IMG/VR virus record: IMGVR_UViG_3300046747_000672
Coordinates: 32,001 to 96,000 of that record
DNA length: 64,000 nucleotides
Strand: one strand, 5' to 3'
Source of the DNA: a virus
The position numbers and the translations under genes are program-made. Position 1 is the stretch's first letter. Each line of letters begins with the position of its first letter. The notes under the pieces are model-generated. The model saw only the letters and a program-made list of their open reading frames with translations. It ran no database searches and was not told the DNA's origin. This document shows, piece by piece, positions 1,067 through 64,000 of this stretch.

Positions 1067-2962
1067 TCAGCTCGTCCGCCACCTCTTCGCCCTCTCATGC
1101 GCATCGACGTCCCCGGGCGCATCGCAGTGGATGCCGCACTTGCCGCACAGCGTGCACCCGCCAGCCGCCTGGCAAGGGTGACCACACGGGAGCGGCGGCG
1201 GGACGATCGCCTCCGCGTAGGCGCGCGCTGAGACGGTCTCGCTGGCGGCGACGCCGAGGACGACCCAGTAGGTCCGCTGCCCGTCATGCTCGCTCGTGCG
1301 GACGCTGACGCGCCCGTGAACGCCGAAGCGCCTGGAGACCTCGACGATGGCTTCGACGAGCCGAACGATGACGACGGGCCACGGGCGAGCGGCGGGGTGG
1401 GTCGACATGCGGGGAGGATATCGCAGGTCGGAGCGGCGCGCGGTCGGGCCTGCGTCGCTACCATGGCGGCCTGAATGTCCTGCCAGCGAGCCAGACGATC
1501 ACGGCAACGGCGGAGCCCCCGACGAGCACGCCAAGGATGAAGAGCGTCAATGGGCGCCGTCCTCTCCGACGTCCCACCCAGGTCGCTCATCATCAACGAG
1601 GGTCCTGTCGGAGGTGCACCACCCGTCGCAGACGAACCACGGCACGTCGAGCGCGAGAATGGCGTGTCCTTGCCGGTCTCGGCGGTACAGGTGGTCGTCC
1701 GGGAAGCCGGCCATGCCGCCACGGTGCGGGTCGAGCTCGTAGGCGGTGGCGCAGAGGAAGTGGAGGGCGAGGGTCACTTCGACTTCCTCGCACTCCCGAT
1801 CGACACCGTCCGCCTGTCGGTGACGTTGATCCCTGCCCGCTTCCAGTCCGGCCACGTGCGAACGACAGCCGCGACGCGATCTACGTCGCGCCAGAATGCG
1901 CGGCTTTCGGGAGTCGACAGGTTGCGGAGAATACGCCTCACGCGCAATCCTTCTTCGGCCGCATCGCCGCCAACCACCTCGCATGCGCCGCAACGTCCAC
2001 GCACTGCCAGCCCATGCATTCCGGCTCGTCGCAGTCGCACGGGGCGACGTCCTGCCCGTTCTCTCGCAGCCACTCGACCGTGACGTCAGAACGTTCGGCG
2101 TAGCCACGGAACCACGTTTCGCCTGCCTCATGCAGCGCTTGTCGCCACGCGTCGCTGCGTTCGTTGGGCGCGTTCAAGAACAAGACGACGTGGTCCATGG
2201 TTTCGTCGGTCCATCGTTCGCGCCACGCTGGCGCGTGATTCGTTGATGCGATGGCGGAGTCGTGCCCGTTATTCATAATCGCTACCCAAACCTCACGACT
2301 GCCGTCAGTGCTCCGAAGAAGTATGGCCACGCCTCCCAGCACATCCGGGTCGATGTCGCCGATCGTGAGCGAGTTTTGCTCTGCCAAAAGGATGGTGGCG
2401 CGTGCACGTTCGATTACTTGCGCCGCTGGAATCTCCGCGCCATCACCGTCCCAGTCGTACTCCAGGCGCGCAAGGCGATCGAAGCTGAGGAGATGGGATT
2501 GGTGGTCTGCATTCCTAGGGTTTGAATCGGACACTACCTTGCACTCCTTCTCGGGCAAACATGCCGCTCCCACCTCGCCAGCGCCCGACTCGCACGGACG
2601 GCGCCCGCGTAGAGCCGTCCTTGCCCGCATCGTAGGCAACCGACGGCGCACGGTCCGCGCGAGCCGATTCCGATCTGTCCGTCGGCTTGGTGGAGCATTT
2701 CGGCGAAGCGGGTTGCGATGTAGAGCCTACCAAACTCGCACCGAAGCGGGACGCGGTTGAGCGGCACGTCGTCGAAGAGCGCATCGAGAGCGTCGATCGC
2801 GTCTGATGTGATCGGCACCGTGTACGTCGTTTCGAACGAGGTCGCGGCCGGAAGCGGCGGCAAGTCTGCTGGTGCCTCGCGCTTGAACTCGTAGCTGAGG
2901 TCGCTGGCGGGCATTTCGATGCCGCCGATCGATATCGTCGAGAAGGTTGCGTGCGCGCTCAT
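1067..2962 (-). CDS. Hypothetical ORFs (1067-1408, ~1547-1850, 1938-2534, 2534-2962)
   Basis: Coupled minus-strand ORFs with natural amino-acid composition and CxxC motifs; some starts uncertain. Confidence 0.55.
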
Positions 2963-3390
2963 TCCCGAAACTCCTCCACGCGACGCCCCATCCCTTTTGC
3001 CTGATCGCAGCAATCCTTCGTGCCTGGGCCGCCGGACGGGAAGGCGACGACGAGTCCCGGACGAACCGTCCTGAGCATGACCCGGTTGCGCACGGGCCCC
3101 GCGGACCGGCACATCGGTCCGAGACGACACTTCGACGCGTGATAGCAGACGTGGACCGTCCACTCGGCGGCGAACGTCTTGCCATCCACTCCGCGCGCCT
3201 CCCGCCAGTTGCACGCGAACAGGTCGGCGCCCGTCTCGCATCCGCCCTCGGCGAGGTAGCCGATCGGCGTCTTCGCGTGGATGGCGTCCAGTGTCGTCCA
3301 TACGAATGCCTCGTTGGTGAGATCTCGGCCTCCGGTCACGACGAGAACGAGATCGTCGGCGCGGCGCGGGAGTTTCCCCGTGATGGTCAC
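2959..3390 (-). CDS. YspA/SLOG-family (DUF2493-like) protein
   Basis: VVTGGRD..EGG.GAD..AGPVRNRVM..VVAFP.GGPGT SLOG motifs. Confidence 0.85.
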   Translation of the reverse strand: MTITGKLPRRADDLVLVVTGGRDLTNEAFVWTTLDAIHAKTPIGYLAEGGCETGADLFACNWREARGVDGKTFAAEWTVHVCYHASKCRLGPMCRSAGPVRNRVMLRTVRPGLVVAFPSGGPGTKDCCDQAKGMGRRVEEFRE

Positions 3391-61830: not shown

Positions 61831-62173
61831 GACCCAGCGGCCTCCCAAGCTCCGCAGAATCGATTCCCCGTCCGCGGACGTCGTGCGTCTCATCCCGAGG
61901 CTAGCAAAGCCCGCTGAGAGCCGCCCAGGCGGCGGAACGCTCATCGCGGTCCCCTTCGGCGCTGGCCCTACCCGGTCAGAGCGCCGCGGACTCGCGAGAG
62001 CGCGCAAACGCAACACCAAGTGATTCGACGCCCCGACGACCGAACGATAGCCCAGCGGACCGCCAAAGCAGCCGACCTCGTCAGGATGGTGGCGCGGCTG
62101 AACGATGGGCCGGTGGGGAGCACGAGCGCGGAGATTCAGACGGTGCGACGGCAGGAAGAGCGAAGGCGGGGTC
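61831..62173 (+). ncRNA. Candidate structured RNA, block 2
   Basis: About 350 nt with no credible ORF and at least 7 stems, including a GCGA tetraloop. Confidence 0.45.
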
Positions 62174-62180
62174 GGAAGCC

Positions 62181-62477
62181 ATGAGGATCACGGCCTCCGG
62201 CAGGCGGACGTCCGGGCGAATCGTCTTCACAGCGGGTTTCGGCATGTCGGCATCGGTCGACTTCACCGAGGCCGACTCAGCGAATGAGATCGCGACAAGG
62301 ATCGTCGATGCGCTGAACGCCCTCCCGATGCCCGTACCGGCGAGTGAGCGTCCGGTGTTCGAGGTCGAGGCCGATGGCTCAACGGTGAGCCAGGTGCGAC
62401 CGCCGGTGACCCCGGCGACGATTCGAGCGTTGGTTTTCGCCGACCTCGGCAAGTACGGGAACGTGGGCGGGACGTAA
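62181..62477 (+). CDS. Hypothetical protein
   Basis: 98-aa ORF with natural composition. Confidence 0.65.
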   Translation: MRITASGRRTSGRIVFTAGFGMSASVDFTEADSANEIATRIVDALNALPMPVPASERPVFEVEADGSTVSQVRPPVTPATIRALVFADLGKYGNVGGT

Positions 62478-62479
62478 GG

Positions 62480-62864
62480 CACGCATGATGAACTTCGGTC
62501 TCCCCGGCTACCGCAAGCGGTTCCTGGGGCCGGTGATGTGGGCGTACTTGGCGATTCGGGTGACGAGGGACGCGGCCTGAGCGCGTCAGGCGACCCGAAG
62601 GCTGCTGCGGCTGCGCAGGCGACGCCGCTCGGTGGGATGGCGGCGGCGGGGCTGGTGAAGAGCGGGAAGCAGTAGTCGCTCTCCTCTGCTGCGGTCGATG
62701 TCTGTAACCGCAGGCGCGATCCCAGATCAGGGTCATCGCGCGAATGTGTCAAGTGAAGTTTGCCGAGAGCGAAGAGTAATTCGGTAGACGCGAGTGTCAG
62801 TGGCGCGAAAGCGCACCGCAACGGGACGACGCCGGTAACGGTCGAAGGCGGTAGCGAATGCGTG
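62480..62864 (+). ncRNA. Candidate structured RNA, block 3
   Basis: About 385 nt closed by CACGCAT/ATGCGTG; about 10 stems, GAAA and GTAA tetraloops, GAA..AGTA loops. Confidence 0.55.
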
Positions 62865-63097
62865 GAAAGGCTTTTGAGATCGGCGGCCAGGTCGGTGGCG
62901 TGACCGAGATCCAAGAAGACGGCAGTCACATCGAGAAGCCGGTGTGCACTCCCATGATCTACGGGGGTCCTCCCCGGTACTGGGTCTACTGGCACATCAA
63001 GAACGGCTACGAGAAGGCCGTCGAAGTTGGACGCGAGGAATTCGAAGCAATCCGGAGGGACTGCCCGGAGTTGCACTGGGCGTCCGTCGGGCCGTAG
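62858..63097 (+). CDS. Hypothetical protein
   Basis: 79-aa ORF with natural composition. Confidence 0.65.
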   Translation: MRGKAFEIGGQVGGVTEIQEDGSHIEKPVCTPMIYGGPPRYWVYWHIKNGYEKAVEVGREEFEAIRRDCPELHWASVGP

Positions 63098-63106
63098 GTC
63101 GTCGAC

Positions 63107-63619
63107 GTGGAAGAGAAACGCGAGTCTTCGGACTCACGCGCGAATGGTCATCCCTTCTTCGAGAAGGCGACCGATCGAGTCGAGTACGTCATCGGACTGA
63201 TGACGGATCGGGTCTGGAACCCGGACACATCGAGGTCTCTTCAGAAGGCGCTGTCCGAGGCATGGGGCGTGACCCAAAGCACGATCCGCAACTACTCGGC
63301 GGAAGCGAGCCATAGCATGCTCGGCACCGTCCGCGAGCGCCGCGCCGAACTCGCGAAGCAAGCAGTCGAGACGTTGCTCGAAGTCGCCAAGTCCGAGGTG
63401 CAGATGCCGGGCGACCGTGCCGCGAAGGTTTCGGCGAGCAAGGTTCTCCTCGAGTTTGCCGGCGTCGACAGGCCGGACGAGGACAAGGTCCAGAAGCACA
63501 TCGTTGCTGGCATGGGCGAGGCGACGCCCGACAAGGCGCGTGAAGTCGTGAGAGCGCTTTTTGGAGACATCGTCCCTCAGTCAAGCCCAGCCGAACTGGA
63601 AGATAGCGGTAAGCGCTGA
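63107..63619 (+). CDS. terS: Terminase small subunit (putative)
   Basis: HTH-like N-terminus (WGVTQSTIRNY), helical, directly upstream of terL. Confidence 0.7.
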   Translation: MEEKRESSDSRANGHPFFEKATDRVEYVIGLMTDRVWNPDTSRSLQKALSEAWGVTQSTIRNYSAEASHSMLGTVRERRAELAKQAVETLLEVAKSEVQMPGDRAAKVSASKVLLEFAGVDRPDEDKVQKHIVAGMGEATPDKAREVVRALFGDIVPQSSPAELEDSGKR

Positions 63620-64000
63620 AGCGCGACGCCGCGTTCTTGCGGCGTACCAGTCTGCCCTGCCAGAGAATGAATGGGCTGCCGTTCGGGCCTGGTTTCACAC
63701 GTTCTACCCATTCCAGCTCGAATGGCTGCTCGATCCGTCGCGATTCGCGGTTTGCAACAAGAGCCGGCAGATCGGCATGTCGCACACGACGGCGGCCCTC
63801 GTCGTCCTCTGGGCAGCGATGCTCGGCGAGACGACCACGCTCATTTCGATCGGACAGCGCGAAGCTGACGAGGTCCAGGCCAAGGCCGAGAAGCACGCAA
63901 AGGCTCTCGTGGCGCTCGGATCGAACTGGGCGCGCGCAAGGCCTCACGGTGAGCAGCTGCGCTTCGCAAGCGGCGGAAGGATCATCGCGGTTCCGAGCTC
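63561..64000 (+). CDS. terL: Terminase large subunit, N-terminal part (truncated by the window end)
   Basis: Frame from TTG 63561: FYPFQLEWL.D.SRFAVCNKSRQIGMS (Q motif and Walker A, Mu gp28-like)..LRFASGGRIIAVPS. Confidence 0.9.
   Translation, partial: METSSLSQAQPNWKIAVSAEARRRVLAAYQSALPENEWAAVRAWFHTFYPFQLEWLLDPSRFAVCNKSRQIGMSHTTAALVVLWAAMLGETTTLISIGQREADEVQAKAEKHAKALVALGSNWARARPHGEQLRFASGGRIIAVPS

What the first reader, a model, noticed from the sequence alone, without database searches (positions are those of the whole stretch)
62480..62864. Block 3: ~385-nt multidomain RNA fold whose closing helix covers the next start codon
Seen: outer stem CACGCAT(62480-86)/ATGCGTG(62858-64), which includes the ATG of the 62858 ORF. 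Long-range helix ACTTGGC+ATTCG(62546-58)/CGAAT+GTCAAGT(62741-54) encloses hairpins GCCTGA/TCAGGC, CGCCGC/GCGGCG, AGAGCG/CGCTCT (loop containing GAA..AGTA), CTGCGGT/ACCGCAG and GCGCGAT/ATCGCGC. These are followed by TTTGCCGA/TCGGTAGA (GAAGAGTA loop), GCGC-GAAA-GCGC and CCG-GTAA-CGG. An alternative pairing TTCGGGT/ACCCGAA competes with the long-range helix. Inference: a tertiary-folded ncRNA, or a translational control element upstream of the terminase genes.
Basis: partly seen in the sequence, partly recalled or inferred. Interest (0 to 1): 0.72.

Follow-up and report, generated by a model that had tools for sequence, protein, structure and literature searches.

The report
Small pseudoknot leader before terminase genes
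The proposed 385-base folded RNA is not supported, but its last ~58 bases are a real, conserved, knotted mRNA leader that sits against the ribosome-binding sites of terminase and scaffold genes in a group of uncultured phages and probably controls how much of those proteins is made.

Summary
Its 5' end holds a 31-codon ORF with gene-like codon usage, and no available relative conserves 62480-62800.

Only 62803-62860 is conserved, at 89% identity over 45 nt in phages whose TerS is about 27% and TerL about 60% identical. I found 28 copies. Each has:
- a variable GC hairpin (P0; here GCGC-GAAA-GCGC);
- an anti-SD arm (P1; here ACCGC/GCGGU);
- a compact H-type pseudoknot (S1 CGG/CCG, S2 CGAC/GUCG, A-rich loop);
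- then the SD and start codon.

In the 24 distinct sequences counted, every pseudoknot pair is a standard pair. One pair per helix covaries (C-G/G-C/U-A/U-G and C-G/A-U/U-G).

The genome has a second copy before its scaffold gene. Other copies precede terS, terL or scaffold genes.

The motif matches no Rfam 15 family, including GP20-a/b. It is a new member of a known but functionally unexplained kind: structured leaders of phage head genes. This scan found analogous leaders on other DNA before (e1-3446491, e1-5161344), but not this sequence family.

Most likely function: cis translational control by SD occlusion, with an unknown effector.

The parts
62485..62580 (+). Probable small protein-coding ORF (31 codons; SD-like AAGG upstream, 7 nt after the stop of the 98-aa ORF). 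Not part of the RNA motif.
   Evidence: GC3 0.83-0.90 in this frame. Codon-usage log-odds 0.313 per codon, like the neighbouring genes (0.28-0.34) and in the top 1% of 387 short ORFs of the genome. No homologue found among the fetched loci.
62581..62675 (+). Weaker coding-like signal in the frame of the 45-codon ORF 62538-62675. Could be a second small ORF or a frameshifted remnant; unresolved.
   Evidence: GC3 0.83-0.87. Sliding log-odds 0.15-0.38 in this frame; the whole ORF scores 0.21 per codon, top 6%.
62676..62802 (+). Non-coding spacer with local hairpins (62689-62741, 62759-62788). No conservation seen.
   Evidence: No frame has positive coding score. Local z -2.95 and -3.8, but the segments were chosen post hoc. 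No blastn match in relatives.
62803..62814 (+). P0: GC hairpin GCGC-GAAA-GCGC immediately 5' of the motif.
   Evidence: Nearly every copy has a hairpin here with an unrelated sequence. Mean z -1.28 against about 0 for control segments, Mann-Whitney p 2e-6.
62815..62819 (+). P1 5' arm (ACCGC), the anti-SD strand.
   Evidence: Pairs with 62848-62852. In relatives the arms change together (CUCCC/GGGAG, CCCCA/UGGGG, AUCCUC/GAGGAU, UUCUCCA/UGGAGAA ...). Permutation tests: 2 of 5000 and 9 of 3000.
62822..62824 (+). S1 5' arm (CGG) of the pseudoknot.
   Evidence: Pairs with 62832-62834. The variable pair is C-G 17, G-C 4, U-A 2, U-G 1, with none unpaired. The L108 variant flips the first pair as well.
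62827..62830 (+). S2 5' arm (CGAC), lying in the S1 loop GACGACG.
   Evidence: Pairs with 62841-62844. The variable pair is C-G 16, A-U 7, U-G 1, with none unpaired.
62832..62834 (+). S1 3' arm (CCG).
62835..62840 (+). L3: A-rich loop GUAACG (6-9 nt in relatives, length not a multiple of 3).
   Evidence: Alignment A5. The length variation rules out a coding explanation.
62841..62844 (+). S2 3' arm (GUCG), followed by the conserved AA.
62848..62852 (+). P1 3' arm (GCGGU), overlapping the SD-like GGCGG 6 nt before the ATG. Also part of an ops-like GGCGGTAGCG string that is probably chance.
   Evidence: The P1 3' arm overlaps the SD-like run in 24 of 28 copies. JUMPstart scores 12.1 bits against a cut-off of 35, E 2.8.
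62858..63097 (+). 79-aa ORFan, the cistron directly controlled by the leader in this phage. terS follows at 63107-63619.
   Evidence: GC3 0.78 and log-odds 0.34 per codon. Only itself found among 5.8 billion proteins. terS and terL by PHROGs.

Best explanation
The 385-nt stretch is not one RNA machine. It consists of a probable 31-codon gene (62485-62580), a possible second short coding remnant, about 130 nt of unconserved hairpin-rich spacer, and a conserved leader RNA at its 3' end (62803-62860).

The leader has four parts:
- P0, a hairpin of any sequence.
- P1, which pairs an upstream pyrimidine strand with the Shine-Dalgarno region of the next gene (ACCGC here; CUCC in most relatives).
- Inside P1, a 23-nt H-type pseudoknot (26-27 nt in relatives): S1 CGN/N'CG, and S2 CGNC in the S1 loop pairing with GN'CG downstream.
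- L3, an A-rich loop.

Shown: the element is conserved far beyond its neighbouring proteins. It covaries as RNA on the sense strand. It is always placed directly 5' of a start codon, and it marks the first cistron of the terminase block and of the scaffold/capsid block.

Inferred: it acts in cis on translation initiation. The folded state hides the SD. The near-invariant unpaired bases (GA in L1, G in L2, the A-rich L3, the 3' AA) form the docking surface for an effector that sets the folded/unfolded balance. The effector may be a protein, for instance free scaffold protein as in P22 autoregulation, or a small ligand. In this way terminase and scaffold synthesis would be tuned together from a polycistronic late mRNA.
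For: - Conservation: 45 nt at 88.9% identity upstream of terS in L084 and L085, whose TerS is 26-27% and TerL 59-61% identical.
- Unbiased regex: the regex leaves the two variable positions free, and all 18 hits pair at both. Among 106 chance matches to the same core, only 16% pair at both.
- Covariation (count of structure pairs): 168 of 168 cells paired, covariation score 0.259 against 0.061 shuffled (0 of 500 shuffles reach it), and slid controls pair in 26-48% of cells.
- Wobble pairs: the U-G pairs (L090, L107) would be C-A mismatches on the other strand.
- P1: RNAfold predicts it in nearly all copies. The arms covary beyond the CUCC/GGAG consensus, and the 3' arm overlaps the SD-like run in 24 of 28.
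- P0: significantly structured compared with control segments.
- L3 length of 6-9 nt excludes coding.
- Copies in this genome: two only, before the 79-aa ORF/terS and before the scaffold-like gene that is followed by the major capsid gene.
- Elsewhere: copies precede terS, terL or homologous scaffold genes.
- Intercistronic position: in L107 the upstream gene ends 22 nt before the core, which argues against a promoter.
- Precedent for scaffold translational autoregulation: bioRxiv 10.1101/2022.12.13.520362.
Against: - No experiment, transcript map or probing data exists.
- Five of the seven pseudoknot pairs never vary. They were fixed by my search patterns, so the covariation rests on two column pairs plus P1, P0 and one variant (L108).
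- The sequences are phylogenetically related.
- In this window the P1 3' arm is GCGGU rather than a canonical GGAG, so SD occlusion is less clear here than in most relatives.
- In L417 the motif lies about 45 nt before the capsid gene's SD, and in 4 of 28 copies P1 does not cover an SD-like run.
- The nested MFE of 62800-62862 is not unusual (z 0.44); pseudoknot energy was not computed.
- The effector is pure inference.
Confidence: 0.5

Rival explanations
1. mRNA stability or processing element. P0 plus the pseudoknot would form a compact 5' barrier against RNase J- or RNase E-type decay, or mark a processing site. The terS and scaffold segments of the late polycistronic mRNA would then outlive the upstream segments. 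The pairing with the SD would be incidental stacking.
For: - The motif is intercistronic and always at the start of highly expressed morphogenesis cistrons.
- A stable hairpin P0 of arbitrary sequence precedes it.
- In L417 the knot is not at the SD.
- Loop-to-3'-flank pseudoknots are the architecture of known exonuclease-resistant viral RNAs (my own knowledge, not tested).
Against: - The systematic complementarity between the 5' flank and the SD (24 of 28) is not needed for a decay barrier.
- The near-invariant loop bases suggest specific recognition.
- There are no data on RNA ends.
Confidence: 0.2
2. DNA-level site: a late promoter or the binding site of a late-gene activator (as for the Mu C-dependent Plys and PI promoters). 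The apparent covariation would come from palindromic half-sites co-evolving with the protein.
For: The two positions, before the terminase block and before the scaffold gene, are where Mu-type phages place late promoters (my own knowledge). TerL is of the Mu gp28 type. Both copies in G000 share the G-C form of S1.
Against: - There are three interleaved sets of complementary segments (P1, S1, S2), including a crossing pair. This is not how dimer operators look.
- U-G, but never A-C, exceptions occur.
- Position is fixed relative to the SD and start, not to any upstream feature.
- No -35/-10-like site is found.
- In L107 the element overlaps the end of the upstream gene.
Confidence: 0.08
3. Transcription-level RNA element: a put-like or attenuator-type RNA that modifies RNA polymerase or read-through into the head genes. 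The ops-like GGCGGTAGCG string could act as a NusG-paralogue recruitment site.
For: Two copies per genome at operon heads resemble putL/putR (my own knowledge). There is a weak JUMPstart/ops match at 62847-62856.
Against: - No terminator follows the element; the start codon comes within 5-15 nt.
- The ops-like string scores 12 bits against a cut-off of 35 and is absent from relatives.
- The complete genome G001 has a single copy.
Confidence: 0.07
4. One reading: the whole of 62480-62864 is one ~385-nt tertiary-folded non-coding RNA closed by CACGCAU/AUGCGUG.
For: The MFE structure does contain the closing helix and the long-range helix. The region is hairpin-rich.
Against: - z -0.34, and 39 of 100 shuffles fold as well.
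- No sub-domain stands out.
- No Rfam hit.
- A gene-like ORF lies at the 5' end.
- Relatives with the conserved 3' motif have upstream gaps ranging from about 0 to about 880 nt, with no similarity to this one.
Confidence: 0.03

Closest known systems
GP20-a (RF02991) and GP20-b (RF03003), and the further candidate structured RNAs upstream of phage scaffold (GP20), capsid and large-terminase genes listed by Fremin and Bhatt 2023 (PMC10690425)
   Same: Short conserved structured leaders found by comparative genomics within about 25 nt of the start of phage head-assembly genes. They are presumed cis-regulatory and their function is unknown.
   Different: No detectable sequence or structure match to either Rfam model. 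This motif also heads terS and terL. It comes from high-GC uncultured phages. Whether it is among the 10,006 unpublished-in-Rfam candidates could not be checked, because the supplement is not held.
preQ1-I riboswitch aptamer (RF00522) and other compact H-type pseudoknot switches (SAM-II, guanidine-III)
   Same: An H-type pseudoknot of about 25-35 nt with a short L1, an A-rich L3 and near-invariant loop bases. It sits against the SD, which is occluded in the folded state.
   Different: No CM match at E<=10. The consensus is GC-rich and different. Here the SD is hidden by a separate outer helix P1, not by S2. The genes controlled are structural and packaging genes, not metabolic ones. No ligand is known.
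Phage T4 gene 32 translational operator, and P22 scaffold (gp8) translational autoregulation
   Same: A 5' leader pseudoknot upstream of the RBS used for autogenous translational control (T4 gene 32). Scaffold synthesis is controlled at translation by free scaffold protein (P22).
   Different: T4's knot is followed by a long unstructured A/U-rich tract that the protein coats; here the SD follows at once and is paired. No RNA operator has been defined for P22. No binding protein has been identified here.
Analogous leaders found earlier in this scan on other DNA (e1-3446491: stem-loop plus AAAAACACGGTTGC before terS and scaffold; e1-5161344: compact pseudoknot before scaffold)
   Same: The same places (terS and scaffold starts) and the same kind of fold. 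One TerL relative, L141, carries the AAACACGGTTGC element at the scaffold site inside a CUCCGG/CCGGAG outer helix.
   Different: A different consensus sequence. No look-alike of this motif exists in earlier windows. Whether the families are homologous is open.

Membership tests
GP20-a RNA (Rfam RF02991) | Match to the covariance model at or above the gathering score of 47.2 bits | tested here: not met
   No match in the whole 113.8-kb record at E<=10. Nothing in cmscan of window 62780-62880 or of the scaffold-proximal copy L381:960-1130 at E<=10.
GP20-b RNA (Rfam RF03003) | Match to the covariance model at or above the gathering score of 36.2 bits | tested here: not met
   No match in the record at E<=10.
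GP20-a/b RNAs | Located directly upstream of a GP20 / Phage_scaffold (PF06810) gene | tested here: inconclusive
   Copy b and 11 other copies precede homologous scaffold-like proteins: phrog_2303 at E 2e-7 to 2e-4 for three of them, and mutual BLASTP E down to 1e-38. Pfam PF06810 is only a sub-threshold hit (E 0.059, L164). The window's own copy precedes an ORFan and terS.
preQ1-I riboswitch (RF00522) | H-type pseudoknot with an A-rich 3' loop, adjacent to the SD | tested here: met
   S1 and S2 cross, are 100% paired and covary. L3 is A-rich, 6-9 nt. The SD follows within 2-4 nt.
preQ1-I riboswitch (RF00522) | Match to the family model, including its conserved ligand-contacting bases | tested here: not met
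   No Rfam family reached E<=10 on three small windows around copies of the motif, apart from two chance-level hits to other families.
JUMPstart / ops element (RF01707) | Model match at or above 35 bits, and conservation of GGCGGTAGNNTG | tested here: not met
   12.1 bits, E 2.8 in a 101-nt search. The string is absent from the other 27 copies.
   z -0.34 and -0.86. Sub-domains z -0.25 to -0.78. Relatives share only 62803-62846.
T4 gene 32-type autogenous operator | Binding of the encoded protein to its own leader | not testable with these tools
   Needs EMSA or toeprinting with purified scaffold or terminase proteins.

The most novel reading that the evidence does not exclude
The knot is a true sensor: an aptamer or protein operator. 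Its occupancy, for example by unassembled scaffold protein or by a small metabolite, opens or closes the anti-SD helix. One signal would then co-regulate translation of the DNA-packaging enzyme and of the capsid scaffold across a clade of uncultured high-GC phages. This would be a new class of phage late-gene translational switch, possibly one branch of a wider superfamily of pseudoknot leaders before head genes.
Probability: 0.22. Interest if true: 0.72.

Novelty: new member of a known kind. Interest (0 to 1): 0.42.

Why it matters
How tailed phages set the very different amounts of terminase, scaffold and capsid protein made from one late transcript is largely unknown outside a few model phages. 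Comparative genomics has produced a growing list of orphan structured leaders in front of scaffold, capsid and terminase genes, and none has a demonstrated mechanism.

This motif is unusually tractable:
- It is tiny, with a 23-27-nt knot.
- It has a clear anti-SD helix.
- It occurs in front of both the packaging and the scaffold cistrons of the same genome.
- It is kept while the downstream terS gene is swapped for unrelated families.

That makes it a good test case for whether these leaders are translational operators, and for finding their effector. For the scan itself, the result shows that hairpin counting by eye in 65% GC DNA is not evidence of structure. The real signal was a short conserved block inside a long chance 'fold'.

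Tried and rejected
- Whole-region and sub-domain folding with shuffles: no signal.
- Rfam over 4 kb, over eight relatives' loci and over three small windows: nothing but chance-level hits.
- Homologues of the 79-aa ORF: none.
- Close relatives through TerL in IMG/VR and GTDB genomes: none with a single-protein query.
- GenBank phages: TerL at most 31% identical, and no DNA match.
- Host assignment failed. The RNA-model search of five large genomes scored only 150 of thousands of candidates. No TerL was found in 401 sampled Actinomycetota.
- A third, weak CM hit at window 2959-3052 lies inside a minus-strand gene and was rejected.
- cos/pac site rejected: the twin copy is at the scaffold gene, and the complete genome G001 carries only the scaffold copy.
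- Coding explanation for the conserved block rejected: loop length varies by non-multiples of 3.
- Supplement of PMC10690425 is not held, so overlap with its 10,006 candidates is unknown.

Full report
**Setting**

The window is bases 32001-96000 of a 113.8-kb IMG/VR virus record with 65% G+C. The finding lies between a 98-aa ORF (62181-62477) and a 79-aa ORF (62858-63097). These are followed by terS (63107-63619) and terL (from 63561), identified by PHROGs. The terL is of the Mu gp28 / Terminase_6 type.

In 65% G+C sequence this is expected:
- The 385-nt + strand folds to -171.4 kcal/mol, against -169.3 +/- 6.0 for dinucleotide shuffles (z -0.34; 39 of 100 shuffles do as well).
- The - strand gives z -0.86.
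- The long-range domain 62546-62754 gives z -0.78, and 62575-62844 gives z -0.25.
- 120-nt windows across 62000-63300 look the same in the gap as in the flanking genes.
- Rfam finds nothing.

So the helices exist, but as an ensemble they are no more than chance.

**What the 5' two-thirds contain**

Third-position G+C is 0.83-0.90 in the frame of the 31-codon ORF 62485-62580. A codon-usage log-odds score trained on 20 long genes of the same genome gives this ORF 0.313 per codon. The neighbouring genes score 0.28-0.34, and only 1% of the genome's 387 ORFs of 28-50 codons score as high.

The ORF starts 7 nt after the stop of the 98-aa ORF, behind an AAGG.

A weaker coding-like signal continues in another frame to 62675. 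This could be a 45-codon ORF or a frameshifted remnant, and it is unresolved. From 62676 to 62857 no frame looks coding.

**The conserved part**

The 79-aa ORF has no relative among 5.8 billion proteins, and no close relative of the phage could be fetched. Using an alignment of TerL homologues I fetched 52 metagenome loci and some IMG/VR loci.

Against these loci the gap gave one thing: window 62803-62846 matches L084 and L085 at 88.9% over 45 nt, and L088 more weakly. Each match lies just upstream of terS. TerS in those loci is only 26-32% identical and TerL 56-61%.

A regex that leaves the variable positions free, nhmmer, a covariance model and three pattern scans of IMG/VR brought the family to 28 distinct copies.

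**Structure**

Each copy reads, from 5' to 3':
- a GC hairpin of arbitrary sequence (P0);
- a pyrimidine strand, usually CUCC;
- 1-5 nt;
- CGN-GA-CGNC-G-N'CG-G-(A-rich, 3-7 nt)-(C)G-GN'CG-AA;
- 1-3 nt;
- a purine strand, usually GGAG;
- and, 5-12 nt later, a start codon.

Two crossing helices follow from this. S1 is CGN/N'CG. S2 is CGNC, which lies in the S1 loop and pairs with GN'CG downstream. Together they form an H-type pseudoknot with L1 = 2 nt, L2 = 1 nt and L3 = 6-9 nt.

On 24 distinct sequences, all 168 pair cells are standard pairs:
- The variable S1 pair is C-G 17, G-C 4, U-A 2, U-G 1.
- The variable S2 pair is C-G 16, A-U 7, U-G 1.
- No shuffle out of 500 reaches the observed covariation, and slid registers pair in only 26-48% of cells.

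As a background, 106 chance matches to the same core pattern in GC-rich viral DNA pair at the S1 position in 32%, at the S2 position in 42%, and at both in 16%. A variant in L108/L132 has S1 = GGG/CCC, which flips a pair that is otherwise invariant.

The flanking strands form P1. RNAfold predicts it in nearly every copy, and its arms change together: ACCGC/GCGGU here, and CCCCA/UGGGG, AUCCUC/GAGGAU, UUCUCCA/UGGAGAA, GCUCCCA/UGGGAGC elsewhere. Swapping 5' and 3' flanks between copies reaches the observed mean helix length in 2 of 5000 and 9 of 3000 permutations. The 3' arm overlaps the SD-like run in 24 of 28 copies.

P0 is more structured than control segments 100-200 nt away (mean z -1.28 against about 0; p 2e-6).

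In the window the parts are:

| Part | Coordinates |
|---|---|
| P0 | 62803-62814 |
| P1 | 62815-19 / 62848-52 |
| S1 | 62822-24 / 62832-34 |
| S2 | 62827-30 / 62841-44 |
| ATG | 62858 |

**Distribution**

The record has exactly two copies. One is in the window. The other is at genome 101041-101104, in the 84-nt gap before a 251-aa Ala/Pro-rich gene that is followed by the major capsid gene (phrog_1357).

That 251-aa protein is homologous to the proteins behind 11 other copies (BLASTP E down to 1e-38). Three of those hit the head-scaffolding family phrog_2303. Other copies precede terS genes, several without detectable similarity to each other, or terL itself (L115, L139).

A complete 64.9-kb genome has only the scaffold copy. 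In L417, an otherwise unrelated phage, the knot sits between the scaffold and capsid genes and is followed by a separate anti-SD hairpin. Upstream gaps range from about 0 nt (L107, where the preceding gene ends 22 nt before the core) to several hundred nt. The long gap in this window is therefore not part of the element.

**Mechanism**

What is shown: this is a sense-strand RNA structure, intercistronic, fixed against the ribosome-binding site of the first cistron of the packaging block and of the scaffold/capsid block. It is conserved while the genes behind it diverge or are replaced.

What is inferred: it controls translation initiation by hiding the SD in P1, which is stacked on the knot. 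The near-invariant unpaired bases then serve as the recognition surface for an effector.

A protein effector is plausible. P22 scaffold protein autoregulates its own translation (bioRxiv 10.1101/2022.12.13.520362), and T4 gene 32 uses a leader pseudoknot. A small ligand is also possible.

I put translational control at about 0.5. The rivals are:
- An RNA stability or processing barrier (0.2).
- A DNA-level late promoter or activator site (0.08). This is disfavoured by the crossing complementary segments, the U-G exceptions and the intercistronic position.
- A put-like or ops-linked transcription element (0.07). The ops-like GGCGGTAGCG at 62847-56 scores 12 bits against a cut-off of 35 and is not conserved.
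- The original 385-nt RNA (0.03).

**Comparison with what is known**

The kind is known. Rfam's GP20-a and GP20-b lie upstream of scaffold or large-terminase genes, as do at least 20 further candidates in PMC10690425: six upstream of GP20 and 14 upstream of a putative large terminase. All are of unknown function.

This motif is not a detectable member of either Rfam family, nor of any other Rfam 15 family. In architecture it is closest to compact H-type switches such as preQ1-I, but it fails their model.

This scan has reported analogous leaders on other DNA (e1-3446491, e1-5161344, e1-5348251, e1-3482143). One TerL relative here (L141) carries the AAACACGGTTGC element of e1-3446491 at its scaffold site. 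No earlier window holds this sequence family.

I file it as a new member of a known kind.

**Limits**

- There are no close relatives, no host and no transcript data.
- Five of the seven knot pairs are invariant and were fixed by my search patterns.
- Overlap with the 10,006 published candidates could not be checked.

Noticed in passing
window 62485-62675: A 31-codon ORF (62485-62580) with codon usage in the top 1% of the genome's short ORFs. It is followed by a weaker coding-like signal in another frame up to 62675. This could be one frameshifted small gene, two small genes or a decayed gene. No homologue was found in the fetched loci.
   Followed up: partly
L381:1041-1104 (genome 101041-101104, beyond the window's end): Second copy of the pseudoknot leader. 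It fills the gap before a 251-aa scaffold-like gene that precedes the major capsid gene. It shares the G-C form of S1 with the window's copy but has the C-G form of S2.
   Followed up: yes
window 62847-62856: GGCGGTAGCG, 10 of 12 bases of the enterobacterial ops / JUMPstart element, overlapping the P1 3' arm. It gives a weak Rfam hit (12.1 bits, E 2.8) and is not conserved in relatives, so it is probably chance. The three copies G000a, G000b and L417 do share GGUAG(A)CG after the knot.
   Followed up: partly
L003:6240-6339, L089:7155-7254, L097:11501-11600: TerL relatives that lack this motif carry another conserved leader before their homologous scaffold genes: ..CUCG-CCUCGC-CGAG-CGUCAUC-GCGCG-UAACGG-AAAGAAGGAA... 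The hairpin loop (CGC, or CAC in L097) changes together with a downstream GCG (or GUG). This is possibly a second pseudoknot family at the same site. Only three sequences were seen.
   Followed up: no
L141:5865-5985: The scaffold leader of this relative contains AAACACGGTTGC inside a CUCCGG/CCGGAG outer helix, with a CCUCG-GACG-CGAGG hairpin. This is the element reported earlier in the scan as e1-3446491. It suggests that several leader families at terS and scaffold starts may be one superfamily.
   Followed up: partly
L417:2751-2882: In an otherwise unrelated phage the same knot lies between the scaffold and major capsid genes. It is followed by a separate hairpin in which GGCCUCC can pair with the capsid gene's AGGAGG.
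   Followed up: partly
window 62689-62741 and 62759-62788: Two local hairpin patches with z about -3 to -3.8 against shuffles. The segments were chosen after seeing them, and no conservation data are available. They could be a terminator-like end of the upstream unit, or nothing.
   Followed up: partly
window 63561-63671: The longest terL ORF (TTG 63561, 486 aa) overlaps terS by 59 nt. The protein on record for this gene is 414 aa, so the true start is probably further downstream.
   Followed up: no
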